The translations under genes were made by a program, and so were the position numbers. Shown piece by piece: positions 15,827-45,208 of a stretch of DNA of 51,795 bases (its first letter is position 1; each line of letters opens with the position of its first letter). Source of the DNA: Hyphomicrobiaceae bacterium (lineage in GTDB: Bacteria; Pseudomonadota; Alphaproteobacteria; Rhizobiales; Hyphomicrobiaceae). The notes under the pieces are model-generated. The model saw only the letters and a list, made by a program, of their open reading frames with translations, had not been told where the DNA came from and ran no database searches. The stretch spans positions 1 to 51,795 of the forward strand of contig JBFWYV010000001.1 in NCBI GenBank assembly GCA_050186055.1. Reading direction: 5' to 3'.

Positions 15827-17053
15827 TCAGATGCCGTCACGCGACAGCAGCGGCGTCAGAAAGGCCGACAGGTTACCGCCGTCGAACAGATGACCCGTGA
15901 TGCCTGCGGCCGCGGCTGCATCCATGTCGATCGTCTTGTCGCCCACCATCAGGCTGCGGCTCGTGTCCACCGGCCAGTCAGCGACGCAGTCGAGCAGCAT
16001 TCCAGGCGCCGGTTTCCGCCTGTCGCTGGCGCGCCGGTAGGCATCGACGACGCCGGCTTCATGGAACGGACAGTACTGGAACGCATCGATATGGGCGCCG
16101 TGTCGCGCAAGCTCGGCGTTCATCCACGCGTGCAGCCGGCGGACATCCTCTTCGCTGTAGAAGCCGCGTGCCACGCCGGCCTGGTTCGTGACCACGAACG
16201 TGTAGTACCCCAGATCGTTGCACAGCTTCACGGCTTCGGCTGCACCATCGATCCACGCAAAATCCTCGCGGCGATAAACGTATCCCTTGTCTTCGTTCAG
16301 CACGCCGTCGCGGTCGAAGAACACAGCCGGCCGCCGGCGGCTGCCGAAATCGGCTCCCGCCCTCTCCAGGTCGGTGGGCACGCCGATGTCGATGAAGTAG
16401 CCGTCATAGAGGCGTGCGCCAAGCTGCCCTGCAGCGGCGAGTCGCGGGAACACCGACTGCTCCAGTGAGCATGGCGCCTCATCGATCAGCTCGAGGATGC
16501 CGCGCCCGGCGCAATAGACTCCGGCATTGATCGGACCGCTTGTTCCGGGTCCCGCCGGCAGAAACCGCGTGACCCGTCCACCATCGACGTCGACCCGGCC
16601 GTAGCGGTCGCCGGGATGATCTCGTTTCAGCGCCATCGTCAGCGACGCCCCATTGCGCCCGGCATCGACCACGAGATCGAGAAAATTGAAGTCGAAATAG
16701 GAATCGCCGTTGAGCAGCAAGAACCGCGGTTCAAGCACGTCGGCCGCGAATTTGAGCGCACCGCCGGTACCGAGCGGAGTTGGTTCCGTGACCACCGAGA
16801 TCCGCGCCCCGCGCCAAGTCCGATCGGCATAGAACTCTGCCACCTGTCCGGCCTTGTAGCCGGCAAGCAGGACGATGCTGGTGATGCCGGGATAGCGCGT
16901 CACCTCGTCGAGAAGGTGTTCCAGAAACGGCCGGCCGCCGACGTCCAGCAGCGGCTTCGGTGTCGACCGGGTGCGTTCCCCCAATCGCGTGCCCAGACCG
17001 CCGACGAGGATGGCCGCCTGGTTCAGCACAGCGCGTCCTCGATGAAGCCGCAT
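15827..17053 (-). CDS. Bifunctional sugar-1-phosphate nucleotidyltransferase (HddC-like) / D,D-heptose 1,7-bisphosphate phosphatase (GmhB, HAD)
   Basis: The N-domain has AILVGGLGTRLGERTRSTPKPLL and LLLNGDSYFD. The C-domain has the HAD motifs FFDRDGVLN, VVTNQAGVARG and RKPAPGM..MVGDKTIDMDAA. An alternative GTG start at 17029 would reduce the overlap with gmhA. Confidence 0.8.
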   Translation of the reverse strand: MRLHRGRAVLNQAAILVGGLGTRLGERTRSTPKPLLDVGGRPFLEHLLDEVTRYPGITSIVLLAGYKAGQVAEFYADRTWRGARISVVTEPTPLGTGGALKFAADVLEPRFLLLNGDSYFDFNFLDLVVDAGRNGASLTMALKRDHPGDRYGRVDVDGGRVTRFLPAGPGTSGPINAGVYCAGRGILELIDEAPCSLEQSVFPRLAAAGQLGARLYDGYFIDIGVPTDLERAGADFGSRRRPAVFFDRDGVLNEDKGYVYRREDFAWIDGAAEAVKLCNDLGYYTFVVTNQAGVARGFYSEEDVRRLHAWMNAELARHGAHIDAFQYCPFHEAGVVDAYRRASDRRKPAPGMLLDCVADWPVDTSRSLMVGDKTIDMDAAAAAGITGHLFDGGNLSAFLTPLLSRDGI

Positions 17054-17604
17054 AGCATGTGGCCGACCACGATATGCATTTCCTGGATCGAGTTGGTGCG
17101 TGTCGAGGGAACGCGAATGGCAAGATCCGCGGCTTCGGCCAGCCGCCCGCCGCCCTGACCGGTCAATGCCACCGTCTTGATCCCGGCCTCGCGCGCCGCC
17201 TCGACGGCCTTGACCACATTGGCGCTGTTGCCGCTGGTAGACAGGCCGACCAGGACGTCTCCGGCGCGGCCGATGCCCTTGAGCTGGCGGCAGAACACCT
17301 CGTCATAGGCATAGTCGTTGGCGATCGCCGTCAGGGCAGACGTATCGACCGTAAGCGCCAGCGCCGGCAGCGGCGCGCGGTCCTTGAGGTACCGCCCCAT
17401 CAGTTCAGCCGCCAGATGCTGCGCATCCGCTGCCGAGCCGCCATTCCCGCAGAACATGACCTTCCCGCCTGATTTCAGCGAATCGACGAGCAGGTCGGCC
17501 GCAGCCGATATGACCTCCGCCTGCCCCTTCAGCAGCTTCATGTTCTCGGCGATGACATCGAGCTCGCCGACGACGCGCGCTGCCAGGTCCGGTCCCGCGC
17601 TCAT
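17023..17604 (-). CDS. gmhA: D-sedoheptulose-7-phosphate isomerase
   Basis: SIS domain: KVMFCGNGGSAADAQHLAAEL, LVGLSTSGNSANV, QEMHIVVGHMLC. Confidence 0.9.
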   Translation of the reverse strand: MSAGPDLAARVVGELDVIAENMKLLKGQAEVISAAADLLVDSLKSGGKVMFCGNGGSAADAQHLAAELMGRYLKDRAPLPALALTVDTSALTAIANDYAYDEVFCRQLKGIGRAGDVLVGLSTSGNSANVVKAVEAAREAGIKTVALTGQGGGRLAEAADLAIRVPSTRTNSIQEMHIVVGHMLCGFIEDALC

Positions 17605-18587
17605 CCCTCATCCCCCTGGAGCTTCTCTTGTCTGGCGGTTTCAACGAGGCACGCGCGCGTCGTCATCTGCGGCGTCCAGCCGAATGCTGCCGAGAAGCCG
17701 CTCGCATCGATCTCCAGGTCTCCGAGCAATTGCGTCGCAAGACGTGTCCCCCCGGCCGCTTTCAACGCCGGGCCGAGCAGGGGACCCGGAACGGGAAACA
17801 GCATGGATCTCATTCCGAACCCCTCGCGCAAGGCGGCCACGATATCTCCGGTCGAAACTACCTGTCTGTCCGCCAGCACGAAAGTCCCTGAAACGGCTCC
17901 GCGCCGCCGACGCTGGAGAACGGCGTCGATGGCAGAGGCCAGATTGTCGACGGACAGCAGGCTGCGCCGGTTCCGAACGCCGCCGAGCGGGAGAGGAATG
18001 GGCCTGCGCGAAAGCCGAAGCAGACGCCAAAGGTTGCCTTTTGCACCCGCTCCACACAGCAGCGGTAGTCTCAGGATGACCAGGGCCGGCCCGCCTTCCG
18101 TGGCCATCGCCGTGAGCGTCTCCTCCGCGGCGTGCTTCGAGCAGGCATAGGGCGAATGAGGATGCGGCGTGCTGGCGTCGTTGAACGGACGGCCTGGCGC
18201 CGAAACATCGCCGAGGACACCGATCGAGCTGATCTGAACGAAGCCGCGTACCCCCGCGGCGGCGGCTGCGCCGTAGAGCCGCTTGGCCCCGTCGGCATTG
18301 ACCCGATTGAACAAAGCGCCGGGATCCGGTGTTGTCTCTCGCATCACGTGGGCACGGCCGGCGAGGTTGACGACGGCCCACACCTCGTCGAGGGCATCGG
18401 TCCAGTCGGTGTCGGGCCCCACTTCGCCGATCTGGACGACGCGCACGTCGGCCGCTGCGGCCGACATCGCATTGCGCGGGCTGCGTGTGGCGAGCGTAAG
18501 GGGCCAGCCTCGTTTCGTCAGAAAAGGCACCAGATGCTGCCCGACGAAGCCCGTTGCGCCGGTGATCAAGACCCGCCCGGGTTCCAT
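17601..18587 (-). CDS. NAD-dependent sugar epimerase/dehydratase (extended SDR)
   Basis: VLITGATGFVGQHL Rossmann motif and YACSKHAAE (YxxxK). It overlaps gmhA by 4 nt. Confidence 0.8.
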   Translation of the reverse strand: MEPGRVLITGATGFVGQHLVPFLTKRGWPLTLATRSPRNAMSAAAADVRVVQIGEVGPDTDWTDALDEVWAVVNLAGRAHVMRETTPDPGALFNRVNADGAKRLYGAAAAAGVRGFVQISSIGVLGDVSAPGRPFNDASTPHPHSPYACSKHAAEETLTAMATEGGPALVILRLPLLCGAGAKGNLWRLLRLSRRPIPLPLGGVRNRRSLLSVDNLASAIDAVLQRRRRGAVSGTFVLADRQVVSTGDIVAALREGFGMRSMLFPVPGPLLGPALKAAGGTRLATQLLGDLEIDASGFSAAFGWTPQMTTRACLVETARQEKLQGDEG

Positions 18588-25658: not shown

Positions 25659-25674
25659 CGCGATGCACTCCGCG

Positions 25675-34774: not shown

Positions 34775-35778
34775 TGAAGTGCAATCCTGTTGAACTCACG
34801 GATTTCCGGTATGCTGAGAAAATGCGGATTTGAACCCGAATCATAACCAAAGCCCTGCTCGACGACACTACCGGTTTCGCCCAACCCATTGCGCGAATAA
34901 TCTACATCGACGTGATGAAAACGGATCGTCGGCTTTATTACAAAATGATCGGGAAATCGCAAAGTGAGGTGCGAATCATCTGGAGGGCACATGACCTCAT
35001 GAAGTTTTTCGCCGGGACGAATGCCGATTACTTTCTGTCTGATATTCGGAGCCATGGCGGTGGCCAGCTCATTGATGCGAACAGATGGAATCACAGGCAC
35101 GAACAACTCTCCGCCGTGCATGCGTTCAAAGGACTTCATCACGAATTCAACGCCCTGCTGAAGCGAGATCCAGAAACGTGTCATGCGAGTATCCGTGATG
35201 GGTAGGTGATCGGTGCGTTGGCGTATTAGGCTCTCGAAAAGCGGAACTACGGAGCCGCGAGAACCAACGACATTACCGTAGCGAACGACGGAAAAGCGAG
35301 TTCTGTGGCCCCCCGCCATGTTGTTGGCAGCTATGAACAATTTGTCTGAAGCCAGCTTCGTCGCACCGTATAAATTGATCGGTTGCGCCGCCTTGTCTGT
35401 TGAAAGTGCAATCACCTTGTCCACATTCGATTGAAGCGAGGCACGGATTACATTTTCAGCGCCATGGATGTTGGTCTTGATGCACTCCATGGGATTATAT
35501 TCGGCAGCCGGAACTTGTTTCAGCGCTGCTGCATGAACGACGAGGTCGATGCCCCTCATTGCCGTCGTCAGGCGATCAGCATCTCGCACGTCGCCGATGA
35601 AAAAGCGCATCGAAGACGCATCGAACAATCGCTGCATCTCATATTGTTTAAGTTCATCTCGCGAATAGACGACAACGCGACGTGGCCGGTATTTATCGAG
35701 TAGCGTGCGAACGAATTTTCGCCCGAAAGAGCCTGTGCCGCCAGTAATAAGGATATTTCTATCGTCGAACATTTTCAT
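34771..35778 (-). CDS. pseB: UDP-N-acetylglucosamine 4,6-dehydratase (inverting)
   Basis: ILITGGTGSFGRKF, VVYSRDELKQ, YGATKLASDKL (YxxxK). ATG 35778 (MKMFDDRN) is chosen because the 35898 start overlaps the upstream SDR gene. Confidence 0.9.
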   Translation of the reverse strand: MKMFDDRNILITGGTGSFGRKFVRTLLDKYRPRRVVVYSRDELKQYEMQRLFDASSMRFFIGDVRDADRLTTAMRGIDLVVHAAALKQVPAAEYNPMECIKTNIHGAENVIRASLQSNVDKVIALSTDKAAQPINLYGATKLASDKLFIAANNMAGGHRTRFSVVRYGNVVGSRGSVVPLFESLIRQRTDHLPITDTRMTRFWISLQQGVEFVMKSFERMHGGELFVPVIPSVRINELATAMAPNIRQKVIGIRPGEKLHEVMCPPDDSHLTLRFPDHFVIKPTIRFHHVDVDYSRNGLGETGSVVEQGFGYDSGSNPHFLSIPEIREFNRIALQ

Positions 35779-35828
35779 CTCATCTGTAAGCGTTTGGCAA
35801 AAACGCAAACCTTCATTGGCGGTAGCTA

Positions 35829-36671
35829 CTACCACACACTGCGGCCGCCATCCATCACGATGTTCTGGCCGGTCATGTAGCTCGACGCGTCCGAGCACAG
35901 GAACTGGACAATCGATCTGTACTCGTCCTTGTGCGCCATCCGGCCCATCGGGATCAGTCGGTGCAGCCGCTCCGTGAAGGCGTCAGGCTGACCGTTGAAC
36001 ACGCCGCCCGGAGACAGCGCATTGACGCGCACGCCCTTGTCGGCCCAGTAGGTCGCAAGATACTTCGTCAGGCCCACAAGCCCATGCTTGATGACCGAGT
36101 AGGTGACGGGCTTCACCGGCTGTTCGGCTTCGGCAGTCACGTTGTCCTGCCGGTAAAGTCGCTGGTCGGGCGCGATCACGCCGAGGTCCGACGCAATATT
36201 GAGAATCACGCCGTCGCCGCGCTCGGCCATGGCGGCCCCGAACACCTGCGCGCATAGCATGGCGCCGGTCAGGCCGACCGCGATCTCCAGGTTCCACTGA
36301 TCGAGGGCAAACCCCTCGAAGCGGGAGGCATGCATCAGGCCGGCGGCCGATGTGACCTTCGGATCGATGGCGGCATTGTTGACCAGGATGCCGACCCCGC
36401 GCCCGTCGCGCGTGAGCCGCTCGTTAAGGGCCGCAATCGATGCGGCCTGACAGACATCGAGCGCTGCCGCCATGCAGGTGGCCTTGGGCACGATTTCCTT
36501 CACGAACACGGCGGCATCGGCAGCGCTCGCCTCGTTGAGATCGCTCAGCACCACAAAAGCGCCGGTCTCGGCCAGCGCTGCCGCATGCTGACGGCCGAGT
36601 AGCCCGCCCGCACCCGTGATCAAGGCCGTGCGCCCTGTGAGATCGTAAGGCTTGGGAAGAATGGGCCTCAT
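35829..36671 (-). CDS. SDR-family oxidoreductase (classical SDR, 1 of 3)
   Basis: ALITGAGGLLG (TGxxxGxG), NNAA, YSVIKHG (YxxxK). The start at 36671 or 36677 avoids overlap with the upstream gene. Confidence 0.8.
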   Translation of the reverse strand: MRPILPKPYDLTGRTALITGAGGLLGRQHAAALAETGAFVVLSDLNEASAADAAVFVKEIVPKATCMAAALDVCQAASIAALNERLTRDGRGVGILVNNAAIDPKVTSAAGLMHASRFEGFALDQWNLEIAVGLTGAMLCAQVFGAAMAERGDGVILNIASDLGVIAPDQRLYRQDNVTAEAEQPVKPVTYSVIKHGLVGLTKYLATYWADKGVRVNALSPGGVFNGQPDAFTERLHRLIPMGRMAHKDEYRSIVQFLCSDASSYMTGQNIVMDGGRSVW

Positions 36672-36699
36672 GCACATATCTCTCCGGATCGTTGTCACA

Positions 36700-37461
36700 T
36701 CATGCGCGGAGCTGACCACCGTCCGCAACCATCACCGTGCCGGTGATGAAAGCGGCGCGCGGCGAAGCGAGGAATGCAACTGCGTCCGCCACTTCTTCGG
36801 GCATGCCCAGCCGCGCAAGCGCCACCTCTCGTGTCAGCATGTCCTCGACGCTGTCGCGGTTCTCGGCCAGCTTGTGTGCCCAGGTTCCGCCTTCGAACAG
36901 GATATTGCCGGGCGCCACGGCATTGATCCGTATACCATCTCGAGCCAGTGGCCTGGCAAGACCTCGTACCGTCGCATTGAGCGCTGCCTTGGCCGCGGAG
37001 TAGGTTACCGGTGCGCCAAGTGCGGCGAGGCCGCAGATTGAGGAGACCGCAACGATCGACCGGTCGCCCTCGCCGTTGCGCATCAAGGGGCGCGCGGCAG
37101 AAATCGTGCCGGTGGTCGCAAACAGGTTGAGGTCCATTACCCGTCGCCACTCGGCGTCCGTCTCGTTGCCGGGCGGCACCGAGGCGCCGCTGCCGACGTT
37201 GCACACCAGGATATCGAGACGTCCCCAGCGTGCACCAACGTCGTCGATGAGCCAGTGCGTCTCGGCATCGTTTTGTACGTCTGCTTTGTGAATCGATACG
37301 TCAGCCGCAATGGAGGCCTTGGCTCGCTCCAGCCCTTCTCCGTCGCGGGCGTTGAGCGCGACCTTGCAGCCCTCGCGCGCCAGCGCCGACGCAATGGCAA
37401 GGCCGATCCCCCGACTTGCCCCGGTCACGAGTGCGACTTTGCTGGCAAGGCCGAGATCCAT
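36700..37461 (-). CDS. SDR-family oxidoreductase (FabG-like, 2 of 3)
   Basis: ALVTGASRGIGLAIA, YSAAKAAL, and the C-terminal ITGTVMVADGG. Its ATG directly abuts the upstream stop (TGAATG). Confidence 0.8.
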   Translation of the reverse strand: MDLGLASKVALVTGASRGIGLAIASALAREGCKVALNARDGEGLERAKASIAADVSIHKADVQNDAETHWLIDDVGARWGRLDILVCNVGSGASVPPGNETDAEWRRVMDLNLFATTGTISAARPLMRNGEGDRSIVAVSSICGLAALGAPVTYSAAKAALNATVRGLARPLARDGIRINAVAPGNILFEGGTWAHKLAENRDSVEDMLTREVALARLGMPEEVADAVAFLASPRAAFITGTVMVADGGQLRA

Positions 37462-38334
37462 TCAGGCACCCGCCGCGATCCAGCCCAGCACCATGTCCTG
37501 GTAGCGCGCGAGGGCACCGGCGTGATCGCCGTCGGCCGCACGCGCCGTTTGCAGCACGTAGTTGCCGGCATAGCCGTTCTGCTCAAGCAGCCGGATGGCG
37601 CGGCCAATCTCTGCCGCTCCGGTCCCAAGCGGCACGGTTGTTCCGCCGCGCACGCGGTCTTTCACATGCACATGCGCGATCCGATCGGCGTAGGCCACGA
37701 TCTCTTCGCCGCAATCGTAGCCGAGCGCCGCACTGTTTCCGATGTCGTAGTTGATGGCGTACGCCTCGGCCGGCAGCCGTTCGATGAAGTGCCTCAGCGT
37801 GTCGGGCGCGTAGTCGGATTCGAACGCCACCAGGACACCGCGCCGGCGTAGATCCGCGGTCCGCTCTGCCAGGACGTCGACGAGCACGGCCTCCTGAGCC
37901 GCAGTCTCCAGCGATCCGTTGTCGACCAGCGGCACCACGACGGTGCCAACGCCTAGCGCTGCAGCAGCGTCGATCACGGTGTCGAACTCGGCAATCAAAG
38001 CATCCCGCTCGGACCCCGCTACTTTCCAGAACGGTGCCTGCATGAACAGGTCGCCGGTCAGTGCAGCGACGCTGATGCTGTTTTGTGCAGCGAGCGCGCG
38101 GATCTCCTGCCGGCCGCCGTCCGTCATGATTGGGTTCTCGGACAGGTGGTCGTGGTCGAGCGTCCATTCGATCAGCTTGAGCCCAAGCCGGGCCGCGCCC
38201 GGAAATTCAGCCTCCCAATCATCCCACGGGAACGCCTGGATCTTGCCGTCGACCAGCGGTGACAGCCGCCCTTGCATGAAGCCGAGGCGCTCCGCCGTAG
38301 GTCGCTTCGCGCGCGTTGAAGTGTTGGCGGTCAC
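37462..38334 (-). CDS. Sugar phosphate isomerase/epimerase (xylose-isomerase-like TIM barrel)
   Basis: LGFMQGRLSP..GLKLIEWTL..VVVPLVD..LVAFESD..NYDIGNSA..HVHVKD is the typical AP_endonuc_2/IolE-like pattern. The proposed GTG start at 38334 forms a GTGA overlap with the upstream stop. The Met of MQGRL is an alternative, and the 38454 start overlaps the upstream gene by about 120 nt. Confidence 0.7.
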   Translation of the reverse strand: MTANTSTRAKRPTAERLGFMQGRLSPLVDGKIQAFPWDDWEAEFPGAARLGLKLIEWTLDHDHLSENPIMTDGGRQEIRALAAQNSISVAALTGDLFMQAPFWKVAGSERDALIAEFDTVIDAAAALGVGTVVVPLVDNGSLETAAQEAVLVDVLAERTADLRRRGVLVAFESDYAPDTLRHFIERLPAEAYAINYDIGNSAALGYDCGEEIVAYADRIAHVHVKDRVRGGTTVPLGTGAAEIGRAIRLLEQNGYAGNYVLQTARAADGDHAGALARYQDMVLGWIAAGA

Positions 38335-39101
38335 GTCACCAGCCCCTTTGCCGTCCAGCCGCCATCGATTATGATCTCCTGGCCGGTCATGTAGGCCGAG
38401 GCATCGGACGCCAGAAACAGCGCCGCCCCGACGAGATCGTCCGGCTCGCCCCACCGATCGAGAATGGTTTGCCGCCGCCGCTGTGCATTGAGCGCCGGGT
38501 CGCGATAGCTCGCATCCGTCATCGCCGTATGCACGTAGCCCGGCGCCAGAGCATTGACCCGAATCCCGTCGGCGGCAAGATCGACCGCAAGCGCGCGCGT
38601 CAGGCCCGTCAGGCCCGCTTTCGCCGCCACGTACCCTGGATTGCCGGGAAAGCCGCGGCTCGAATTGATGCTGGTGACGTTGACGATAGACCCGCGGCCG
38701 GACGCCTTCAGGAGGCGTCGCGCCGCGAGTACTGTCGCATAGACTGAGACCAGATCGGCCTCCAGTGTCGTTCGGAACCGCTCGATCTCCTCGGACGGCG
38801 AGCCGTTGCTCGGTCCCAATGAGATGCCGGCCGCGTTGATCAGAACATTGAGTTGCCCCGCATCCGCGCCGATCGTCGAAAAAGCAGCCTCGACTGCAGC
38901 AGGATTGGAAACATCGCAGGAAAAGGCTTGCACGCCTTCAGAGCCGGTGCCGCTGCGGCTGAGCCCATAGACCCGCGCGCCTGCCGTGGCTAGCCCGGCA
39001 GCGATCACCGCACCGATCCCGCGCGATGCGCCGGTGACTGCGGCGGTACGGCCGGCCAGCCCGAACCGCTTGGCGAGGGCGTCAGCCGGTGCGTCAGGCA
39101 T
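38331..39101 (-). CDS. SDR-family oxidoreductase (3 of 3)
   Basis: AAVTGASRGIGAVIA, NAAG, YVAAKAGL, MTGQEIIIDGG. Confidence 0.8.
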   Translation of the reverse strand: MPDAPADALAKRFGLAGRTAAVTGASRGIGAVIAAGLATAGARVYGLSRSGTGSEGVQAFSCDVSNPAAVEAAFSTIGADAGQLNVLINAAGISLGPSNGSPSEEIERFRTTLEADLVSVYATVLAARRLLKASGRGSIVNVTSINSSRGFPGNPGYVAAKAGLTGLTRALAVDLAADGIRVNALAPGYVHTAMTDASYRDPALNAQRRRQTILDRWGEPDDLVGAALFLASDASAYMTGQEIIIDGGWTAKGLVT

Positions 39102-39816
39102 AGCCGTAGCCCCGCATGATGACCTCGCACAGCTTGATGTCTTCGATCCTGTCGATCTGGAACATCTTGTGGCGTTCCATCAGGTAGAACCCGATCCGAC
39201 CGCCCAGCCGATTGTTGTTCTCGCGCAGCAGGCTTGGAGGGAAGACATAGAAGGAGCCGTTCTCCAGAAAACGGCGCTCGATCTCCTGCCGTCGCCGGCG
39301 CGTGCGATAATCATAGTTGACCGCCTCGGCTTGCCCGTCCTTGTCGAGCCGCCAGTTGAAGAAATCCTCCACCTCGCACACCGACAGCAAGCTGTCGTAT
39401 CCTTCGCGCTCATAGAGTTCGAGCGCGTCCGAAAGGTCGTTGGGCCCGCGGACCGGCGACGTCGCCTGCAGCGCCACGATCCGCGTGAACGGACCTTCTG
39501 TTGCCTCCACGCTGTCGAGCGCATGCCGCCACGCCGACTCGGAGGTCGCCGTGTCGCTGGAGATCGCGTCGGGACGTTTGATGCCGATGGCGCCATGGGC
39601 GCAGGCGACATCGAGGATCTCATCGCTGTCGGAGGAAAGCACTACGACGTCGATGCCCTTGGCATCGCGCGCCTGTTCGACGGTCCATGCAATCAGCGGC
39701 TTGCCGCAGATCTCGAGAAGGTTCTTGCGCGGTATGCCTTTCGAACCGCCTCGCGCGGCGATCACCGCCAGCGTGCGCTGCGGACCGGCGTCGCGCCGGC
39801 GAACTTGCGCCGTCAC
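39094..39816 (-). CDS. Acylneuraminate/ulosonate cytidylyltransferase family (NeuA/KdsB-like), second copy in the locus
   Basis: LAVIAARGGSKGIPRKNLLEICGKPLIAW, LQATSPVR. The GTG start forms a GTGA overlap with the upstream synthase stop. Confidence 0.8.
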   Translation of the reverse strand: MTAQVRRRDAGPQRTLAVIAARGGSKGIPRKNLLEICGKPLIAWTVEQARDAKGIDVVVLSSDSDEILDVACAHGAIGIKRPDAISSDTATSESAWRHALDSVEATEGPFTRIVALQATSPVRGPNDLSDALELYEREGYDSLLSVCEVEDFFNWRLDKDGQAEAVNYDYRTRRRRQEIERRFLENGSFYVFPPSLLRENNNRLGGRIGFYLMERHKMFQIDRIEDIKLCEVIMRGYGYA

Positions 39817-41771
39817 AGCCTGCCCTCCAGCCGCGCCAGTGCGGTCCAGAAGCCTTCGCCCATGTTCTTGTGCCCCTGCCAGATCTCGGGGATGAAGGAT
39901 GCGCCCGGAGCATGCTCGGCCAAGGTCTTGCCGAGCGCATCGAAATCAATCTCGCCGTCCTCGATTTGCAGACCCTCGCCGTCCAGCCCCTTGGCATCGC
40001 CCAGATGAAGATGCGCTGTATGCGGACCAAGCGCCGCGAGCCCTTCCAGAAAATCGAAGCCGAAATGATTGGATGCAAGCCGGGTATGCGAGATGTCGAC
40101 ACACATCCTCAATCCGGTTCTGGCACAGAATGCCGCCGACTCCTCGGGGAAGATGAAGATGTTCTGATGTCGTTGCCCGCCGAAGTGCCATGGGAACGGC
40201 GCCATCGTCTGCGGGATCAGCTCGACGCCCGTCATGTCGAGTTCGCCGAGGCTCATCTCGAAAATGTCGTAGCGCCGCGCTTTCTCGTCGGCGGGCAGCG
40301 GCGCGTCGCGCGTGAAGCCGCCTACATTGGCGACGATCATCGGCCGCTCCGTACGCGGGAAGAAACGCTTCAATCCGCGCGTGATGTCGATCACGCGCTG
40401 CGTCTCTTTGATCGAGATCTGCCGTTCCTCTTCGTCTGGCGTCGCCATATCCATCAGCCGGCTGCCGGCGAACAGCTCAGGTGCATGGACGACGAAACCG
40501 ATTTCGTAGGTCCCTTTGAGATAGTCGGCCGGGTCGCGGTCCATGTCCTGGTAGCTCAGGTGGAACTCGATCAGATCCGGCCGGCAGATCTTCAGAAAAC
40601 GCTCCGTATCGTGATAGCGCACCGGCACCCCCCACGGGCGGCTGAACGTATAGGCGCGCGCCTTGTCGCCGCCCGCCTCCAGGTCGGAGGCAAAGAAGTA
40701 GTCGTCCTTGCGCATCGCCCGTGTCAGGGTGCGGCCGACCAGCCGCGGCATCGCCAGCGGCGACACGCCCTGGCCCGGGCTGCGCACTGCGATGTCGCCT
40801 TCGCCAATCACGGCACCGGCTTCAAGGTCACGAGCCGCCACGAGGCTCTTGGCCAGGTTCTCGCGGTTGATGAGTTCGCCCTGGCTCAGTCTGCGCTCGC
40901 CCGCATTGCTCTCGGCTGCGCCATCTCCCATCGCCGCTTCGATTTCGCGAATGCCGCTGACCAGCGTCGAGAACTCGGCCGGCTCCAGGCTCGCGGCGTG
41001 ATCCGGTCCCTCCATGGTCCTGTCGAGCGTGATGTGACGTTCGATGATCGATGCGCCGAGCGCGACTGCGGCCTGCGATACGGCGACCCCGCGCTCATGC
41101 CCCGAATAGCCGACGGGCATGTGCACCTGCGCAAGCTGCCGCATGAAGCGGAGGTTGATATTGTGGAATGCGGCCGGATACGTGCTCTGGCAATGCAGCA
41201 GCGCATACGCGGCGCCGCGCTTGTCCAGATAGTCCGTAACCGTCGTGATTTCTCCGATCGTGCTCATGCCGGTCGACAGGATCATCGGCTTTCCCGTCGC
41301 CGCGATCACTGTGAGCAACGGCAGGTTCGTCAGATCGGCCGACGCCACCTTGAAGGCGGCAACGCCGAACCCGTCGAGCACCGCCACGCTCGCCGGGTCC
41401 CATGGCGTGCAGAGATAGGTGATGCCGGCTTGTTCGCAATAGGCCGCGAGGCGTTGGTGATCCGCGGTCCTGAGCTCGAATCTGCGCAGCAGATCGAGCG
41501 TGTATTCGACGGCAAGATCATCCTCGCGGCCTTCCAGCGTCGCGGCCCGATAGACCTGATCCAAATGCCGCATCTGGAACTTGGCGCAGTCGGCGCCCGC
41601 CGCGATCGCAGCATCCACCAGCGCGATCGCCCGGTCGAAGTCGCCGTTGTGATTGTTGCCGATCTCGGCGATCACGTAGCAGGGATGGCCAGGACCGACG
41701 GTACGCGGACCGATTTTCAGCTCGGCACGGCCTTTGTCCGCCCGCGAGCCGTTGGCATTGCCGTCCATCAT
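39813..41771 (-). CDS. Fusion protein: NeuB-family PEP-condensing ulosonic acid synthase + SAF domain + C-terminal xylose-isomerase-like TIM barrel
   Basis: N-half: CYVIAEIGNNHNGDFDRA, KFQMRHL, FKVASADLTNL, ILSTGMST, GYSGHERG, IERHITLD, and SAF (AKSLVAARDLEAGAVIGEGDIAVRSPG). C-half (about aa 385-652): IEFHLSY..VVHAPE..IVANVGG..ISHTRL..HLHLGD, typical of AP_endonuc_2/sugar-P isomerase barrels. Confidence 0.75.
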   Translation of the reverse strand: MMDGNANGSRADKGRAELKIGPRTVGPGHPCYVIAEIGNNHNGDFDRAIALVDAAIAAGADCAKFQMRHLDQVYRAATLEGREDDLAVEYTLDLLRRFELRTADHQRLAAYCEQAGITYLCTPWDPASVAVLDGFGVAAFKVASADLTNLPLLTVIAATGKPMILSTGMSTIGEITTVTDYLDKRGAAYALLHCQSTYPAAFHNINLRFMRQLAQVHMPVGYSGHERGVAVSQAAVALGASIIERHITLDRTMEGPDHAASLEPAEFSTLVSGIREIEAAMGDGAAESNAGERRLSQGELINRENLAKSLVAARDLEAGAVIGEGDIAVRSPGQGVSPLAMPRLVGRTLTRAMRKDDYFFASDLEAGGDKARAYTFSRPWGVPVRYHDTERFLKICRPDLIEFHLSYQDMDRDPADYLKGTYEIGFVVHAPELFAGSRLMDMATPDEEERQISIKETQRVIDITRGLKRFFPRTERPMIVANVGGFTRDAPLPADEKARRYDIFEMSLGELDMTGVELIPQTMAPFPWHFGGQRHQNIFIFPEESAAFCARTGLRMCVDISHTRLASNHFGFDFLEGLAALGPHTAHLHLGDAKGLDGEGLQIEDGEIDFDALGKTLAEHAPGASFIPEIWQGHKNMGEGFWTALARLEGRL

Positions 41772-41901: not shown

Positions 41902-43275
41902 TCACTCGGGCATCCTCGTTTTCCAGGATTGCAGCCCGGTTTCATCGAATGAAATACGCTGGCAGCGATAGCCTGCACCCTCCATCGCGGTCTCGAAGTG
42001 GTATCGATGGAAGGGGCGGGTGTAAAACAGAAAGTAGCCGCCGCCGCCGGCACCAAGGAGCTTGCCTCCGATCGCGTGGTTGACGGCAGCGAAATCGTAG
42101 ATCTTGTCGATCTCGCCGTTGCTGATGGCCGAACTGAACTGGCGTTTGACCTGCCAGGCTTCGTCCAGCAAGCAGCCATAGTCGAGAAGACGTCCCCGCA
42201 GCAGCAGCTTTTTCATCTCCCGCGTGATGTCCTTCTGGCGCTCCGCGAGCTGCTTGATGTCGCGGCTCTCGGCCATGCTCTGCCTCTGATCGCGATGCAC
42301 CGCGCCCGAATCGTGCAGCTTGCCGGTGAACACCAGGACCAGGCTTTCCTCGAGTTCGCGCAGGGTTCGTGTTTCGAGCCTCAGTGGTACAACCTCGTTG
42401 TGGTCGGAGGTGAACTCCATGAAGTTGAAGCCGCCGAACACCGTCGCATACTGATCCTGCCAGCCTCCGGGGATGTTGAGCAGCAGCCGCTCCGATTGAA
42501 AGGCCATCTCCGCGATTTCGTGCCGGTCCCAGCGGTCGGCGCGGAACTCGTTGAAGCAGCCGATGACGGCCGACGTCACCGCCGCCGAGCCGCCGAGCCC
42601 CGAGCCGACAGGGAAGTCTGCGGCGACCTCGAGATCGAAGCCAAATCCGGGATCGATCAGGCGCACGACGGCCTTGAGCAGGTCGAGCCGGCCGTCAAAC
42701 GCCAGATCCTGCACGGAGGCGGCATTGACCGCATCGCGGAAGTCGTGCGAATAGATCCTCACGCCCTTGTTCGGCCGGCGCCTGAGACTGGCGTGGGCGA
42801 AGAGCTGCACGGTCGTGTTGATCACGACTCCGCCGTTCTCGTCGAAATAGTGGGTGAGATCGGTGCCTCCGCCGCCGAAGCTGATTCGGGCCGGCGACCG
42901 CGAGCGGCTGTAGACCTCGCGCTCTTCCTCGAGCTGAAACCGCTCGCGGGTGTAGACGTCGGCGAGCCGCCCGGCGCTGTCGAGCACTGGCACCGAGTGG
43001 ATCCGGTGGTCGAGAAGCTTGAGGATGTTCTCGCGCGGCGTGCCGACTTTCGCAGATACGAAGCGGCGGTTCATGCAATGCGACACCGGCAGCTTGATAT
43101 CGCGCGTCTTGAGCAGAAATCGCCGTATGTCGCCGTCCGTCACACTTCCGGTGATGCACTGGTCAAGGTCGCAGGCGAACAGGATTCTCAGCTTGTTCGC
43201 ATTGAGCCGGTGCAACGCCTCCTCGATCGGCTGGCTCTCACCCACCGTCCACGACTCGCGCTCAGCCGCCGACAT
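41902..43275 (-). CDS. Fusion protein: N-terminal CBS-domain pair + GHMP sugar kinase (HddA / D-glycero-D-manno-heptose-7-P kinase-like, COG2605 type)
   Basis: CBS region: ILFACDLDQCITGSVTDGDIRRFLL ... SVPVLDSAGRLADVYT. Kinase: RISFGGGGTDL, PVGSGLGGSAAV (GHMP motif II), GKLLGAGGGGYFLFY (motif III). Confidence 0.75.
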   Translation of the reverse strand: MSAAERESWTVGESQPIEEALHRLNANKLRILFACDLDQCITGSVTDGDIRRFLLKTRDIKLPVSHCMNRRFVSAKVGTPRENILKLLDHRIHSVPVLDSAGRLADVYTRERFQLEEEREVYSRSRSPARISFGGGGTDLTHYFDENGGVVINTTVQLFAHASLRRRPNKGVRIYSHDFRDAVNAASVQDLAFDGRLDLLKAVVRLIDPGFGFDLEVAADFPVGSGLGGSAAVTSAVIGCFNEFRADRWDRHEIAEMAFQSERLLLNIPGGWQDQYATVFGGFNFMEFTSDHNEVVPLRLETRTLRELEESLVLVFTGKLHDSGAVHRDQRQSMAESRDIKQLAERQKDITREMKKLLLRGRLLDYGCLLDEAWQVKRQFSSAISNGEIDKIYDFAAVNHAIGGKLLGAGGGGYFLFYTRPFHRYHFETAMEGAGYRCQRISFDETGLQSWKTRMPE

Positions 43276-43422: not shown

Positions 43423-44064
43423 TCAGCCGCCGCGACGGCGTAGCGTGACGTACAGCGCCCCCTCCCCGCCATGGCGGGCATGCGCTGCCGCGTAACTGAT
43501 CACCAGTCCGCGCAGTTGCGGCGACCCAAGCCAGCGCGGGACATTGCGGCGCAACACCCCGCGATCGCGACCGAAATTGTCTCCGTCACGCGTGCTTCTG
43601 CCCTGCGGCGCACCTTTCCCGGTTATGATCAGCACGGTCTTCAGGCCATCCGCCGCGGCGCGGTGAAGAAATTGCGATAGCGCGCCGTGTGCTTCGTCCT
43701 GGGTCATGCCATGAAGGTCCAACCGCGCTTCGATCTCGATGCCGCCGCGTGCGATGCGCCGCGCCTTGCGCCGCTCCAGCACGACCATCTGCGGCTCATC
43801 TTGAACCTCGCGCGCAGCCCGCTTGCCCTCAGGCCGCGAAGGCTTGGCTGGAGGAGCCGGCCGCGCCTCCACGGGGTCGGGTGTCCTCGTCCTCTGCGGG
43901 CGCGCCGCTGCGTCGCCGCCGCTCGTGGCATCGTTTCGCATATCGACGGGCGCAACCCTCGTCTTGCTCACGGTCCGGCGCACGTCGCGCGTGACATGAC
44001 GCCAAAGTGCGGCGTCCTCCTCGCTGAGGCCGCGTGGCCGACGCCGGTCGCCGCCCCCTGCCAT
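43423..44064 (-). CDS. Smr/MutS2-family (Smr domain) protein
   Basis: LDLHGMTQDEAHGAL..LIITGKG..GVLRRNVPRWL..GGEGALYV. ATG 44064 shares one nt with the mltA stop (TGATG). The track start at 44085 is 7 codons longer. Confidence 0.8.
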   Translation of the reverse strand: MAGGGDRRRPRGLSEEDAALWRHVTRDVRRTVSKTRVAPVDMRNDATSGGDAAARPQRTRTPDPVEARPAPPAKPSRPEGKRAAREVQDEPQMVVLERRKARRIARGGIEIEARLDLHGMTQDEAHGALSQFLHRAAADGLKTVLIITGKGAPQGRSTRDGDNFGRDRGVLRRNVPRWLGSPQLRGLVISYAAAHARHGGEGALYVTLRRRGG

Positions 44065-45203
44065 CAGTCCGCCTGTCTGCTGCACGGTCGTTCGACCGGT
44101 TTCAGCACGTAGAACGAGCCCTTGTGCTTGGTGATGCCAGCCTTCGCACCGGCGCCATCGCCGGAACCGAAGTAGATATCGCCGCGTTCCGGTCCGGCGA
44201 TCGCCGAACCGACATCCTGCGCAATCATCAATCGTCTGAAGGCCCGGCCGTTGCCCGCATGCGTCAGCGTCGGCGCATCGACGAACACCGGCATCCCCAG
44301 CGTATGTGTCGAGCCGTCGACGGCCAGGCTGCGCCCCGGCGTCAGCGGGATATCGAGCGCCCCGTGCGGACTGTCCGCCTCGCGACCGGTGAGGGCCCGG
44401 AAGAACACGAAGGATTCGTTGTGCTGCATGACTTTGCGGCCGCGCTCTCGATCGGCCCGCAGATAGGCCCCGAGCGATTGCAGGGACATTGCCGCAAGGG
44501 TCATCGCGCCCTGCTCGATCAGGCGGCGGCCGACAGACCGGTAGGGATGCCCGTTCTTGCCGTCGTAGGTGATGCGCAGCCTCGACCCGTCGGTGAGCCG
44601 CACGAGCCCGGATCCCTGAACCTGCACGAAAAACGCATCGACCGGATCCGCCAGCCAGATCAGCTCCAGCCCTTGGCCGGCAAGCGCTCCAGCCTCGATC
44701 TCACGCCGGGTGAAATAGGGAACGAGGCCGTCGGCAGTGCGACGCTTATGCGTGGCGCCGATGCCGGGCGCAGCCCGCAGCACGTCGTCGGTCACCGCCT
44801 CCAGATCGGGAGGCCGCCGATACAGCGGCACGTTGAACTGGTCGGTCCGTTCGCGCGCCCCGACCAGTACCGGTTCGAAATACCCTGTCAACAGCCCCTG
44901 CCGGTCCGGCTGGCTGAGGCGGTACGGCCGGAAATAATGCTCGAAGAATCCGCGCGCCTCGTCTGTGCCGACGCGCCGCCCGGACCGCACACGCGCCTGC
45001 GCCGCCGCGCAGGCACGCAGAAGTGCCATATCGCTCGACCACGAGGCTCCTGCCCCCTGCGATCTCGCCCGCTGCTCGACGGCAGCGCATGATTTCAGAA
45101 ACGCCCGGAACGCCGCCGCGTGATTGTCCACATCCCAGCCGGGGACATCGGAGTAGCAGGCTGCATGGTAGCGCAGCTCCTGTCCCTCCGCCGGGCGGTG
45201 CAT
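44064..45203 (-). CDS. mltA: Murein transglycosylase A
   Basis: FFEHYFRPY, LLTGYFEP, PYFTRREIE, the 3D-domain GRSLAVD, and GAKAGI..KGSFYVL. Confidence 0.85.
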   Translation of the reverse strand: MHRPAEGQELRYHAACYSDVPGWDVDNHAAAFRAFLKSCAAVEQRARSQGAGASWSSDMALLRACAAAQARVRSGRRVGTDEARGFFEHYFRPYRLSQPDRQGLLTGYFEPVLVGARERTDQFNVPLYRRPPDLEAVTDDVLRAAPGIGATHKRRTADGLVPYFTRREIEAGALAGQGLELIWLADPVDAFFVQVQGSGLVRLTDGSRLRITYDGKNGHPYRSVGRRLIEQGAMTLAAMSLQSLGAYLRADRERGRKVMQHNESFVFFRALTGREADSPHGALDIPLTPGRSLAVDGSTHTLGMPVFVDAPTLTHAGNGRAFRRLMIAQDVGSAIAGPERGDIYFGSGDGAGAKAGITKHKGSFYVLKPVERPCSRQAD

Positions 45204-45208
45204 TGCAT

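What the first reader, a model, noticed from the sequence alone, without database searches (positions are those of the whole stretch)
39813..41771. NeuB-SAF synthase covalently fused to a xylose-isomerase-like TIM barrel
The 652-aa ORF reads through from a complete NeuB+SAF unit (about aa 20-370) into a domain of about 270 aa (roughly nt 39813-40619). That domain carries the AP_endonuc_2/sugar-phosphate isomerase pattern IEFHLSY..VVHAPE..ISHTRL..HLHLGD. I saw no stop or frame change at the junction. A stand-alone paralogous barrel (37462-38334) lies three genes downstream. A physical fusion suggests channelling between an isomerisation/epimerisation or dehydration step and the PEP condensation. 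That could mean making the aldose substrate in situ or processing the nascent keto-acid. I do not recall this architecture among characterised sialic/nonulosonic acid synthases.
Basis: partly seen in the sequence, partly recalled or inferred. Interest (0 to 1): 0.7.

Follow-up and report, generated by a model that had tools for sequence, protein, structure and literature searches.

The report
Sialic-acid-type synthase fused to a TIM barrel
The fusion is real and belongs to a widespread, ancient family of two-enzyme proteins; a Serratia protein with the same domain make-up is needed to make the sialic-acid relative Kdn, and here the gene sits in an unstudied cassette tied to heptose-activating genes, so it may make an undescribed ten-carbon acidic sugar.

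Summary
The 652-aa ORF (39813-41771, minus strand) is a genuine NeuB + SAF + xylose-isomerase-like TIM-barrel protein and not an assembly artefact. The same colinear protein occurs in at least 584 species-representative genomes across many phyla. The NeuB domains of all the fused proteins I put in a neighbour-joining tree form one clade.

The architecture is not unnoticed. In Serratia marcescens KL1/KL2 capsule loci, a neuB with an extra COG1082 domain, next to neuA, is genetically required for Kdn (plus minor Neu5Ac) and for capsule. The extra domain was never assayed there. I found that same minimal two-gene module (cytidylyltransferase + CBS-NeuB-SAF-barrel) in Actinomyces, Ensifer and a capsule locus from a metagenome.

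The window carries a second, uncharacterised context. It is a conserved cassette: CBS-HddA-like kinase, the fusion, a cytidylyltransferase, a UlaE-like barrel and classical SDRs. Outside Bradyrhizobiaceae this cassette is interleaved with GmhB, HddC and GmhA, a complete nucleotide-heptose pathway.

No NeuC/PseG/LegG-type hydrolase is present in the loci I inventoried. My best inference is that the fused barrel frees the manno-configured aldose from its GDP- or phosphate-activated form for the adjacent PEP condensation. This is unproven.

The parts
39813..41771 (-). Fusion gene (652 aa): NeuB + SAF + xylose-isomerase-like TIM barrel
   Evidence: ORF; Pfam; colinear homologues; AF2 full-length model with pLDDT 91.2 and pTM 0.80
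40920..41621 (-). NeuB (PEP-condensing TIM barrel) domain, residues 51-284
   Evidence: PF03102 E 1.2e-82. The residues I mapped onto N. meningitidis NeuB (E25, K53, Q55, K129, S132, H215, E234, H236, D247) correspond to E36, K64, Q66, K141, S144, H225, E244, H246 and D257. TIGR03569 scores 328 bits against a cut-off of 399.65, so the protein is not an equivalog NeuB
40677..40850 (-). SAF / antifreeze-like domain, residues 308-365
   Evidence: PF08666 E 8.7e-11. The motif [KR]SPGQG replaces the RPG of NeuB/PseI
39816..40649 (-). C-terminal xylose-isomerase-like / endonuclease-IV-like TIM barrel, residues 375-652
   Evidence: PF01261. AF2 model has pLDDT 95.6. Foldseek finds EndoIV 5zhz, MJ1311 3wqo and ketose 3-epimerases at TM 0.6-0.76 and 10-20% identity. 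Invariant residues are R385, D388, E402, H404, H429, S453, D559, H562, H589, D592, E599, E629, W631 and H634
41902..43275 (-). CBS-pair + GHMP kinase of the HddA/WcbL (heptose-7-phosphate 1-kinase) family; directly upstream of the fusion wherever upstream sequence was held
   Evidence: Pfam CBS and GHMP_kinases_N; NF049969 HddA 240.8 bits, below its cut-off; PDB 4n3o E 1.3e-55, also 4usk and 3k85; synteny
39094..39816 (-). CMP-ulosonate-type cytidylyltransferase; its GTG start overlaps the fusion's TGA stop (GTGA)
   Evidence: PF02348 E 5.4e-23; PseF-like at 116.7 bits, below cut-off; overlap read
38331..39101 (-). Classical SDR 'a' (KduD / gluconate-5-dehydrogenase-like); present in only part of the cassettes
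37462..38334 (-). Stand-alone UlaE-like TIM barrel (Bar2), a core cassette member
   Evidence: PF01261 E 4.9e-21; PDB 3cqh E 4.9e-8; synteny
36700..37461 (-). Classical SDR 'b', a core cassette member
35829..36728 (-). Classical SDR 'c', a core cassette member (homologues are about 280 aa, so the true start is probably later)
15827..18587 (-). Nucleotide-heptose genes in the same island: fused HddC-GmhB (15827-17053), GmhA (17023-17604) and an extended SDR (17601-18587). These are the probable source of the activated heptose. The only HddA-type kinase I found in the window is the cassette's CBS-kinase
   Evidence: Pfam; NCBIfam (GmhA TIGR00441 scores 217.5 against a cut-off of 209.45); linkage of these genes to the cassette in other genomes

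Best explanation
The gene encodes a bifunctional ulosonic-acid synthase of an old, monophyletic fused family.

Shown: the NeuB-SAF part keeps the PEP- and metal-site residues I mapped from N. meningitidis NeuB. The barrel is a well-folded, strongly conserved metal-type TIM barrel. The gene is translationally coupled to a CMP-transferase gene. A Serratia protein with the same domain composition is genetically required for Kdn.

Inferred: the pathway runs like every other bacterial nonulosonic-acid route. A nucleotide-activated sugar is built, the free reducing sugar is released, it is condensed with PEP, and the product is activated with CMP. The release step has no NeuC/PseG/LegG-type gene in the loci I inventoried. 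I assign it to the fused barrel, a distant relative of the phosphoester-cleaving endonuclease IV. The barrel would hydrolyse the GDP-activated (or 1-phosphate) manno-configured sugar and hand the open-chain aldose to the neighbouring NeuB active site.

In the two-gene version (Serratia, Actinomyces, Ensifer) the donor would be GDP-mannose and the product Kdn. In the window's cassette the donor would be the product of GmhA, the CBS-HddA kinase, GmhB and HddC, that is GDP-D-glycero-alpha-D-manno-heptose. The product would then be a ten-carbon Kdn homologue. The UlaE-like barrel and the classical SDRs would tailor it, and the cytidylyltransferase would activate it with CMP. The CBS pair on the kinase would be the regulatory input.

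The confidence of 0.42 refers to the specific role proposed for the barrel. That the protein is a genuine member of the conserved fused synthase family I hold at about 0.9.
For: Reality and age of the fusion.
- More than 100 Bradyrhizobium 90%-identity clusters share the architecture.
- 823 clusters at 50% identity match the barrel, and about 88 of the best 150 carry NeuB in the same chain.
- 584 confirmed species-genome hits. In 79 of the 80 loci kept, NeuB-SAF and the barrel share one ORF; the 80th is cut by the contig end.
- The window protein is 45% identical and colinear with a 751-aa CBS-bearing form.
- In the NJ tree the NeuB domains of all fused forms make one clade, apart from PseI, NmNeuB and NANS.

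Link to Kdn.
- PMC9000132 reports NeuB + COG1082 next to neuA. A delta-neuB mutant loses Kdn/Neu5Ac and capsule, and complementation restores them.
- The same neuA-plus-fusion pair, with no other sugar-pathway gene from my query set, occurs in L084, L085, L086 and L087.

Link to heptose.
- The kinase belongs to the HddA/WcbL family.
- Among 54 non-Bradyrhizobiaceae loci, an HddC-like gene sits directly upstream of the kinase in 38 of the 45 loci that hold the kinase next to the fusion. GmhB sits upstream of HddC in 13. GmhA sits directly downstream of the fusion in 34.
- In the window, HddC-GmhB and GmhA lie in the same island.

Missing hydrolase.
- The Leptospira operon inventory holds 13 contiguous genes. 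None is of the NeuC/PseG/LegG type and there is no spare ORF.
- None appears in L001/L002 or in the two-gene loci.

Chemistry of the barrel.
- The best Foldseek hit is endonuclease IV, and a profile search finds MJ1311 and then endonuclease IV.
- H429, D559, H562, H589 and E629 align with EndoIV metal ligands.
- Gln replaces the epimerase catalytic Glu.

Coupling.
- The SAF-barrel linker is about 10 residues, and the full-length model has pTM 0.80.
- The stop and start codons overlap as GTGA with the cytidylyltransferase gene.
Against: No enzyme of this barrel subfamily has been assayed.
- Fold similarity to endonuclease IV is remote (TM about 0.7, 17% identity).
- Two of the three EndoIV Zn1 ligands are missing (N482, Q521), and the D229/H231 loop is absent.
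- No sugar-nucleotide hydrolase is known to me in the PF01261 superfamily; the commonest activities there are isomerase, epimerase and dehydratase.
- The heptose genes could supply a separate heptosyl donor for the same glycan, while the fusion simply makes Kdn. Operon interleaving is suggestive, not proof.
- In the window and in Bradyrhizobium the heptose genes are kilobases away, not interleaved.
- I could not obtain the Serratia protein sequence. Its membership of the same barrel subfamily rests on identical domain and COG composition and on gene order only.
Confidence: 0.42

Rival explanations
1. Animal-type phosphate route. The NeuB domain condenses PEP with a sugar phosphate: mannose-6-P in the two-gene loci, heptose-7-P from GmhA in the cassette. 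The fused barrel is then the ulosonate-9(10)-phosphate phosphatase. It would be the functional counterpart of NANP or of the HAD phosphatase BT1713 that partners the Bacteroides Kdn-9-P synthase.
For: The two-gene module must start from a primary metabolite. The NeuB-SAF part scores higher against vertebrate Neu5Ac-9-P synthase (222 bits, 35%) than against NmNeuB (168 bits) or the window's PseI (157 bits). It shares the motifs GYSGHE, ERHITLD and DHxASLEP with the vertebrate enzyme. The Pfam listings of the two-gene loci show no HAD phosphatase. Endonuclease IV also has 3'-phosphomonoesterase activity (own knowledge). The Serratia authors note that human NANS makes both phosphorylated Neu5Ac and phosphorylated Kdn.
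Against: This route needs only GmhA. It leaves the conserved HddA-type anomeric kinase, GmhB and HddC unexplained. In the tree the fused clade is not sister to NANS. The basic residue K308, shared with NANS, is also basic in PseI, which uses a free sugar.
Confidence: 0.2
2. The barrel is an aldose-ketose isomerase or an epimerase. It would convert a ketose(-phosphate) or a gluco-configured sugar into the manno-configured aldose that NeuB consumes, with the irreversible PEP condensation pulling an unfavourable equilibrium.
For: PF01261 membership, and close fold matches to ketose 3-epimerases and UlaE. JGI annotators call the domain 'sugar phosphate isomerase/epimerase'. D559, H589 and E629 match three of the four E-D-H-E positions.
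Against: The fourth position, a catalytic Glu in the 3-epimerases, is Gln in this protein and in most fused forms. The cassettes already carry a GmhA-type isomerase and a UlaE-like epimerase. Mannose-6-P and GDP-mannose are ordinary metabolites, so an isomerase adds little to the two-gene module. Whichever activated or phosphorylated sugar is isomerised, a release or dephosphorylation step would still be missing.
Confidence: 0.15
3. The barrel acts after condensation, for example by dehydration or epimerisation of the nascent keto-acid. Alternatively it is a non-catalytic scaffold or regulatory module that stabilises the NeuB dimer.
For: The superfamily includes dehydratases such as IolE and 3-dehydroshikimate dehydratase (own knowledge; weak IolE hit for Bar2). 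Two canonical metal ligands are substituted.
Against: In Serratia the product recovered is plain Kdn, so no post-condensation change needs explaining. More than 20 invariant polar, Gly and aromatic residues lie around the barrel mouth across phyla, which argues for a working active site.
Confidence: 0.12
4. Assembly or frameshift artefact: two separate genes wrongly joined.
For: None found. A few database 'stand-alone' barrels exist.
Against: Hundreds of independent genomes and metagenomes have the same continuous ORF. The one 'stand-alone' barrel whose contig I examined lies in a frameshift-ridden contig beside CBS-NeuB fragments, so there the split form is the artefact.
Confidence: 0.01

Closest known systems
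Serratia marcescens KL1/KL2 capsule NeuB (Anderson et al. 2022, PMC9000132)
   Same: It combines a NeuB-family domain with an extra COG1082 'sugar phosphate isomerase/epimerase' domain. It is adjacent to an acylneuraminate-type cytidylyltransferase inside a surface-polysaccharide locus. It is genetically required for an ulosonic acid.
   Different: The Serratia gene belongs to a two-gene module with neuA first, and its product is Kdn with about 5% Neu5Ac. The window gene follows a CBS-HddA-type kinase and precedes the cytidylyltransferase. It is accompanied by a UlaE-like barrel, three SDRs and, elsewhere in the island, nucleotide-heptose genes.
Bacterial NeuB / LegI / PseI synthases (for example N. 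meningitidis NeuB, PDB 1xuu/1xuz; C. jejuni PseI 8h2c)
   Same: NeuB TIM barrel plus SAF domain, with the metal and PEP residues I mapped conserved. The same pathway position is expected, just before a CMP-transferase.
   Different: Identity is 31-33%. The protein falls below both equivalog cut-offs and sits in a separate clade. It has 278 extra C-terminal residues. The known enzymes receive their free sugar from separate hydrolases (NeuC, LegG, PseG), which are absent from the cassette and two-gene loci I inventoried.
Nucleotide-sugar hydrolases that feed nonulosonic-acid synthases (NeuC, LegG, PseG) and GDP-mannose mannosyl hydrolase WcaH/Gmm
   Same: They occupy the proposed functional slot: releasing the reducing sugar from an NDP-sugar.
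   Different: Their folds are unrelated: the UDP-GlcNAc 2-epimerase fold, GT-B and Nudix (own knowledge). The resemblance is functional and inferred, not tested.
Endonuclease IV (PDB 5zhz, 1qum) and MJ1311 (3wqo, 'D-tagatose 3-epimerase-like protein')
   Same: These are the nearest solved relatives by fold and by profile. They share the HAP, DxxH and HxH..D motifs and the beta-8 Glu.
   Different: Identity is only 17-20%. The trinuclear-site ligands are incomplete (N482, Q521, and no D229/H231 loop). The substrate is obviously not DNA. As far as I know, the function of MJ1311 is itself unknown.
Kdn-9-phosphate / Neu5Ac-9-phosphate route (vertebrate NANS + NANP; Bacteroides thetaiotaomicron Kdn-9-P synthase + HAD phosphatase)
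   Same: Both concern deaminated sialic-acid chemistry. The NeuB-SAF part of the window protein is slightly more similar to NANS than to bacterial NeuB.
   Different: In those systems the phosphatase is a separate HAD protein and no TIM barrel is involved. The details of the Bacteroides system are from my own knowledge and from its citation in PMC9000132; the primary paper was not held.
GDP-D-glycero-alpha-D-manno-heptose pathway (GmhA, HddA/WcbL, GmhB, HddC)
   Same: All four functions have family-level homologues linked to the cassette.
   Different: The known pathway ends in a heptosyl donor for capsules and S-layers. Here it is interleaved with a PEP-condensing synthase and a CMP-transferase. 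The kinase carries an N-terminal CBS pair.

Membership tests
NeuB family nonulosonic/ulosonic acid synthases (PF03102 + PF08666) | NeuB domain and SAF domain both above the Pfam gathering scores | tested here: met
   277.5 bits against 22.1, and 42.7 bits against 21
NeuB family nonulosonic/ulosonic acid synthases (PF03102 + PF08666) | Metal and PEP/sugar-site residues of N. meningitidis NeuB (E25, K53, Q55, K129, S132, H215, E234, H236, D247) | tested here: met
   These align to E36, K64, Q66, K141, S144, H225, E244, H246 and D257. All but E36 (at least 90%) are invariant in 33 fused proteins. Differences: N184 is Ser, F112 is Trp, and R314 sits in an RSPG rather than an RPG context
N-acetylneuraminate synthase proper (TIGR03569) or pseudaminic acid synthase (TIGR03586) | Score above NCBI's equivalog cut-off | tested here: not met
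   328.2 against 399.65, and 222.3 against 340.25. The protein also falls in a separate clade in the NJ tree
Xylose-isomerase-like TIM barrel superfamily (PF01261) | Pfam score above the gathering score, and a (beta/alpha)8 fold | tested here: met
   59.4 bits against 31.1. The AF2 model has pLDDT 95.6. 221 PDB matches at E<=0.001, all of the top 50 from this superfamily
Ketose 3-epimerases / UlaE (within PF01261) | E-D-H-E tetrad in which both Glu residues act as catalytic bases and metal ligands | tested here: not met
   D559, H589 and E629 are present, but the beta-4 Glu position is Q521 (PQTM). It is Glu only in a minority subgroup of the family
Endonuclease IV | Nine-residue trinuclear metal site (H69, H109, E145, D179, H182, H216, D229, H231, E261) | tested here: not met
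   Equivalents exist for H69 (H429), D179 (D559), H182 (H562), H216 (H589) and E261 (E629). H109 is N482, E145 is Q521, and the D229/H231 loop is deleted, with E599 nearby. The residue numbering of E. coli Endo IV is from my own knowledge
Serratia-type Kdn 'NeuB' (NeuB + COG1082 fusion) | Same domain composition and adjacency to a cytidylyltransferase gene in a surface-glycan locus | tested here: met
   for the window. JGI names homologues 'sialic acid synthase SpsE/sugar phosphate isomerase/epimerase'.
Serratia-type Kdn 'NeuB' (NeuB + COG1082 fusion) | Sequence-level orthology to the Serratia protein | not tested
   The Serratia sequence could not be reached with the tools. As a proxy, the window protein is 45% identical over the full length to a 751-aa protein from an analogous neuA-neuB capsule locus
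Serratia-type Kdn 'NeuB' (NeuB + COG1082 fusion) | The product is Kdn | not testable with these tools
   This needs biochemistry or glycan analysis. The context (kinase, SDRs, second barrel, heptose genes) differs from the two-gene Kdn module
GDP-heptose pathway kinase HddA | NCBIfam equivalog score, and similarity to solved heptokinases | tested here: inconclusive
   240.8 bits against a cut-off of 600. However, E is 1.3e-55 to PDB 4n3o and about 1e-50 to WcbL 4usk. The protein also has an extra N-terminal CBS pair

The most novel reading that the evidence does not exclude
The cassette found here, and in hundreds of species from Leptospira to Bradyrhizobium, Chlorobium, Flavobacteriia and SAR86, makes a CMP-activated ten-carbon 3-deoxy-2-ulosonic acid. 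The sugar would be a 'Kdn plus one carbon', built from GDP-D-glycero-D-manno-heptose and PEP. The fused TIM barrel would be a new kind of nucleotide-sugar (or sugar-1-phosphate) hydrolase, derived from the endonuclease-IV/xylose-isomerase fold, that channels the freed aldose into the NeuB site.
Probability: 0.25. Interest if true: 0.85.

Novelty: new variant of a known kind. Interest (0 to 1): 0.55.

Why it matters
Nonulosonic acids such as sialic, legionaminic and pseudaminic acid and Kdn decorate capsules, LPS and flagella, and they shape how hosts and phages recognise a cell. This fused synthase family is widespread, yet the only experimental evidence I found is one genetic study in a clinical Serratia. 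The role of its extra domain is unknown.

If the barrel supplies the free aldose, it would fill the missing hydrolase step of Kdn biosynthesis in bacteria. It would also add a new chemistry to a well-studied fold. If the heptose link is real, a whole class of ten-carbon acidic sugars may be hiding in common soil, freshwater and marine bacteria, including agriculturally important Bradyrhizobium.

Both ideas can be tested directly with one recombinant protein and commercially or enzymatically available substrates.

Tried and rejected
1. Frameshift or assembly artefact. Rejected.

2. Bradyrhizose biosynthesis, which I considered because bradyrhizose is a C10 sugar of Bradyrhizobium. The published candidate cluster is a different, dTDP-glucose-dehydratase-containing operon of photosynthetic strains. 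It does not mention NeuB.

3. Close paralogy of the two barrels. Rejected.

4. A phosphate-binding signature shared only with NANS (K308). Rejected as a discriminator because PseI also has a basic residue at that position.

5. The large phylogenetic survey of NeuB (PMC8208679) contains no occurrence of my search terms for this fusion. PMC554113 lists AP_endonuc_2 only as an over-represented domain. A 2026 bioRxiv screen mentions Bradyrhizobium for an unrelated clone.

The absence of prior description of the cassette is therefore not established.

7. The primary paper on Bacteroides Kdn synthesis (PMC4425688) is not held.

8. A PDB sequence search with the SAF domain did not retrieve the human NANS AFP domain.

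9. The full-length structure prediction gives confidence values but no coordinates. Whether the two active sites face each other could not be examined.

Full report
THE OBSERVATION

The minus-strand ORF 39813-41771 encodes 652 residues from an ATG that follows a GAGAGGA ribosome-binding motif. Pfam places NeuB at residues 51-284, SAF at 308-365 and AP_endonuc_2 (xylose-isomerase-like TIM barrel) at 403-640. All three score above their gathering thresholds.

A second AP_endonuc_2 protein lies three genes downstream at 37462-38334. It shows no significant pairwise similarity to the fused barrel (best E 0.023). It resembles UlaE, whereas the fused barrel's nearest solved relatives are MJ1311 and endonuclease IV.

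NOT AN ARTEFACT, AND NOT RARE

- More than a hundred Bradyrhizobium protein clusters at 75-79% identity have the same three-domain architecture.
- An exhaustive search with the barrel alone found 823 clusters at 50% identity, 184 of them at E<=1e-30.
- Of the best 150 representatives, about 88 carry NeuB in the same chain. They come in two forms: NeuB-SAF-barrel of about 620-650 aa, and CBS-NeuB-SAF-barrel of about 730-770 aa.
- The one 'stand-alone' barrel whose contig I examined sits in a frameshift-ridden contig next to CBS-NeuB fragments.
- The best 80 span Bradyrhizobium, Nitrobacter, Rhizomicrobium, Mycobacteriaceae, Nitrospinales, Burkholderiales, Chlorobium, many Leptospira, Flavobacteriia, Cytophagia, SAR86, Bdellovibrionales and Puniceicoccaceae.
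- In 79 of these 80 loci NeuB-SAF and the barrel share one ORF. In the remaining one the ORF is cut by the contig end.
- The window protein aligns colinearly, at 45% identity, with a 751-aa CBS-bearing form.
- In a neighbour-joining tree the NeuB domains of all fused proteins form one clade, apart from PseI, other NeuB-like proteins, N. meningitidis NeuB and vertebrate NANS. CBS-bearing and CBS-less forms are intermixed.

The fusion therefore looks old and stably inherited.

WHAT EACH HALF LOOKS LIKE

The NeuB-SAF half keeps the metal and PEP/sugar-site residues that I mapped from N. meningitidis NeuB. It scores below NCBI's equivalog cut-offs for both NeuB and PseI. BLASTP scores for the NeuB-SAF part:

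| Compared with | Bits | Identity |
|---|---|---|
| Vertebrate Neu5Ac-9-P synthase (NANS) | 222 | 35% |
| N. meningitidis NeuB | 168 | 33% |
| The window's own PseI | 157 | 32% |

The barrel half models with pLDDT 95.6. Its structural neighbours are endonuclease IV, MJ1311 and ketose 3-epimerases, at TM 0.6-0.76 and only 10-20% identity. A family profile finds MJ1311 (E 1e-10) and then endonuclease IV.

About two dozen residues are invariant across phyla: R385, D388, E402, H404, H429, S453, D559, H562, H589, D592, E599, E629, W631 and H634, plus Gly/Pro loop positions. The barrel is therefore almost certainly catalytic.

Two positions are substituted. They are metal ligands in endonuclease IV and MJ1311, and one of them is a catalytic Glu in the 3-epimerases. 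Here and in most fused forms they are Asn482 and Gln521. A minority subgroup keeps His and Glu. The canonical epimerase mechanism is thus not supported for this protein.

The full-length model has pLDDT 91.2 and pTM 0.80, with a short SAF-barrel linker. This suggests a compact arrangement.

WHAT IS ALREADY KNOWN

Anderson et al. 2022 (PMC9000132) studied the Serratia marcescens KL1 and KL2 capsule loci. [quoted passage not shown] The strains make Kdn and about 5% Neu5Ac. Deleting neuB abolishes sialic acid and capsule, and complementation restores both. The extra domain was not studied.

I found the same cytidylyltransferase-plus-fusion gene pair in three settings:
- an Actinomyces graevenitzii glycan cluster;
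- a Wza/Wzi/Wzz/rml capsule locus;
- an Ensifer canadensis megaplasmid.

Marine gammaproteobacteria also carry close homologues of the CBS-bearing fusion, but I did not examine their gene neighbourhoods. In the loci I did examine, the pair has no kinase, SDR, second barrel or heptose gene beside it. Two genes therefore suffice to go from a primary metabolite to a CMP-ulosonic acid.

I could not obtain the Serratia sequence. Its membership of this exact barrel subfamily rests on identical domain and COG composition and on gene order.

THE WINDOW'S CONTEXT IS DIFFERENT AND, AS FAR AS I COULD FIND, UNSTUDIED

Here the fusion follows a gene for a CBS-pair + GHMP kinase. Its stop overlaps the GTG start of a cytidylyltransferase gene (GTGA). 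Then come an SDR, the UlaE-like barrel and two more SDRs.

This order (kinase, fusion, cytidylyltransferase, optional SDRa, Bar2, SDRb, SDRc) recurs in nearly all 80 loci across phyla. The kinase belongs to the HddA/WcbL heptose-7-phosphate kinase family, with E 1.3e-55 to PDB 4n3o.

Outside Bradyrhizobiaceae the operon reads GmhB, HddC, CBS-HddA, NeuB-SAF-barrel, GmhA, and so on. Counts among the 54 non-Bradyrhizobiaceae loci:

| Feature | Count |
|---|---|
| HddC-like gene directly upstream of the kinase | 38 of the 45 loci that hold the kinase next to the fusion |
| GmhB-like gene directly upstream of HddC | 13 |
| GmhA-like gene directly downstream of the fusion | 34 of 54 |

Many of these operons add a class-III aminotransferase, a VOC-family protein and methyltransferases.

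In Bradyrhizobiaceae a fused HddC-GmhB gene lies within 9 kb in 14 of 28 loci. In the window it sits at 15827-17053, next to GmhA (17023-17604, above the TIGR00441 cut-off) and an extended SDR. The only HddA-type kinase I found in the window is the cassette's CBS-kinase.

The CBS pair on the kinase is homologous to the CBS pair at the N-terminus of the 750-aa fusions. This looks as if the regulatory module moved between neighbouring genes.

MECHANISM

All characterised bacterial nonulosonic-acid routes follow the same four steps (established knowledge of the Neu, Leg and Pse pathways):
1. Build an NDP-sugar.
2. Release the free reducing sugar with a dedicated hydrolase (NeuC, LegG or PseG).
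3. Condense it with PEP.
4. Activate the product with CMP.

The cassette encodes a complete NDP-heptose pathway, a synthase and a CMP-transferase, but no such hydrolase. The 13-gene Leptospira operon has no unassigned ORF. The two-gene Kdn module likewise lacks one.

The one conserved catalytic domain without a job is the fused barrel, a remote relative of a phosphoester hydrolase. I therefore propose that it frees the manno-configured aldose from its GDP-activated (or 1-phosphate) form next to the NeuB site. The donor would be GDP-mannose in the two-gene systems, giving Kdn. In the cassette it would be GDP-D-glycero-D-manno-heptose, giving a ten-carbon Kdn homologue that Bar2 and the SDRs then tailor.

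Everything from 'I therefore propose' onward is inference. The alternatives are:
- a terminal phosphatase acting after condensation of a sugar phosphate, as in the animal and Bacteroides routes;
- a post-condensation or structural role.

These are weighed in the rival explanations. The heptose genes may also simply supply a second donor for the same glycan.

VERDICT

The finding is real. It is not an orphan curiosity, because the architecture is common and has one genetic characterisation. That lowers its novelty. Two things remain open and testable: what the barrel does, and whether the heptose-linked cassette makes an undescribed ten-carbon acidic sugar.

The failure of several literature searches means I cannot exclude that the cassette has been described elsewhere.

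Noticed in passing
window 29716-35898 (-): A complete pseudaminic-acid gene set lies directly beside the cassette, at lower GC (about 53-57% against 65%). It comprises PseB (34771-35898, TIGR03589 528 bits; the true start is probably Met43), PseC (33614-34774), PseF (32904-33617), a PseG-like DUF354 protein (31659-32876), a formyltransferase-like protein (30991-31635) and a PseI-type NeuB+SAF (29716-30789). The island therefore encodes two separate PEP-condensing synthases and two cytidylyltransferases. The same juxtaposition is seen in L001 and in several Bradyrhizobium loci.
   Followed up: partly
window 22610-29782 (-): Five consecutive ORFs (470, 341, 314, 504 and 497 aa) have no Pfam hit. 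The first lies in a sharp GC trough (44% at 23-24 kb). They sit between a KpsC/KpsS-like protein and PseI, and are presumably glycan polymerase, transferase or flippase-type genes of foreign origin.
   Followed up: no
window 20920-22479 (-), 20055-20855 (-), 18660-19973 (-), 14764-15792 (+): Glycan assembly genes: a Capsule_synth (KpsC/KpsS-like; by my own knowledge, the family of CMP-Kdo-dependent transferases) protein, a GT2, a Wzy_C/O-antigen-ligase-like protein and a GT4 (WecA-like) initiating transferase. The KpsC/S-like enzyme is a candidate user of the CMP-ulosonic acid.
   Followed up: no
window 41902-43275 (-), compared with L084-L087: The CBS pair sits on the HddA-type kinase in cassette loci, but on the N-terminus of the NeuB fusion in two-gene loci. 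The two CBS pairs detect each other by phmmer. This suggests the regulatory module was transferred when the GHMP part was lost or gained between adjacent genes.
   Followed up: partly
fused barrel, residues 482 and 521 of the window protein (alignment A1): Two metal-ligand positions vary together across the family. They are N/S/T plus Q in most fused proteins, but H plus E (as in endonuclease IV and MJ1311) in a subgroup comprising P0166, P0248, P0191, P0231 and P0263. This may mark two metal stoichiometries or two activities.
   Followed up: no
loci L033, L038, L042, L044, L045, L048, L049, L059, L062, L066, L069, L081 (roughly 10-15 kb in each locus): An extended version of the cassette carries a class-III (GABA/ornithine-type) aminotransferase, a VOC/glyoxalase-fold protein and one or two methyltransferases between the cytidylyltransferase and Bar2. 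This implies amino- and methyl-tailored derivatives of the product in Leptospira, Chlorobium, SAR86 and others.
   Followed up: partly
window 10417-11736 (-): An FGE-sulfatase-domain protein (439 aa) with no obvious link to the glycan genes.
   Followed up: no
window 43423-45940 (-): The island ends abruptly upstream of the kinase, at three ORFs that I did not scan. From reading their translations alone they look like Smr-, MltA- and Tim44-like housekeeping genes. In Bradyrhizobium the same cassette sits in a different neighbourhood: a branched-chain ABC transporter, an AGE-family epimerase and an AMP-binding enzyme. The cassette therefore appears to move as a unit.
   Followed up: no
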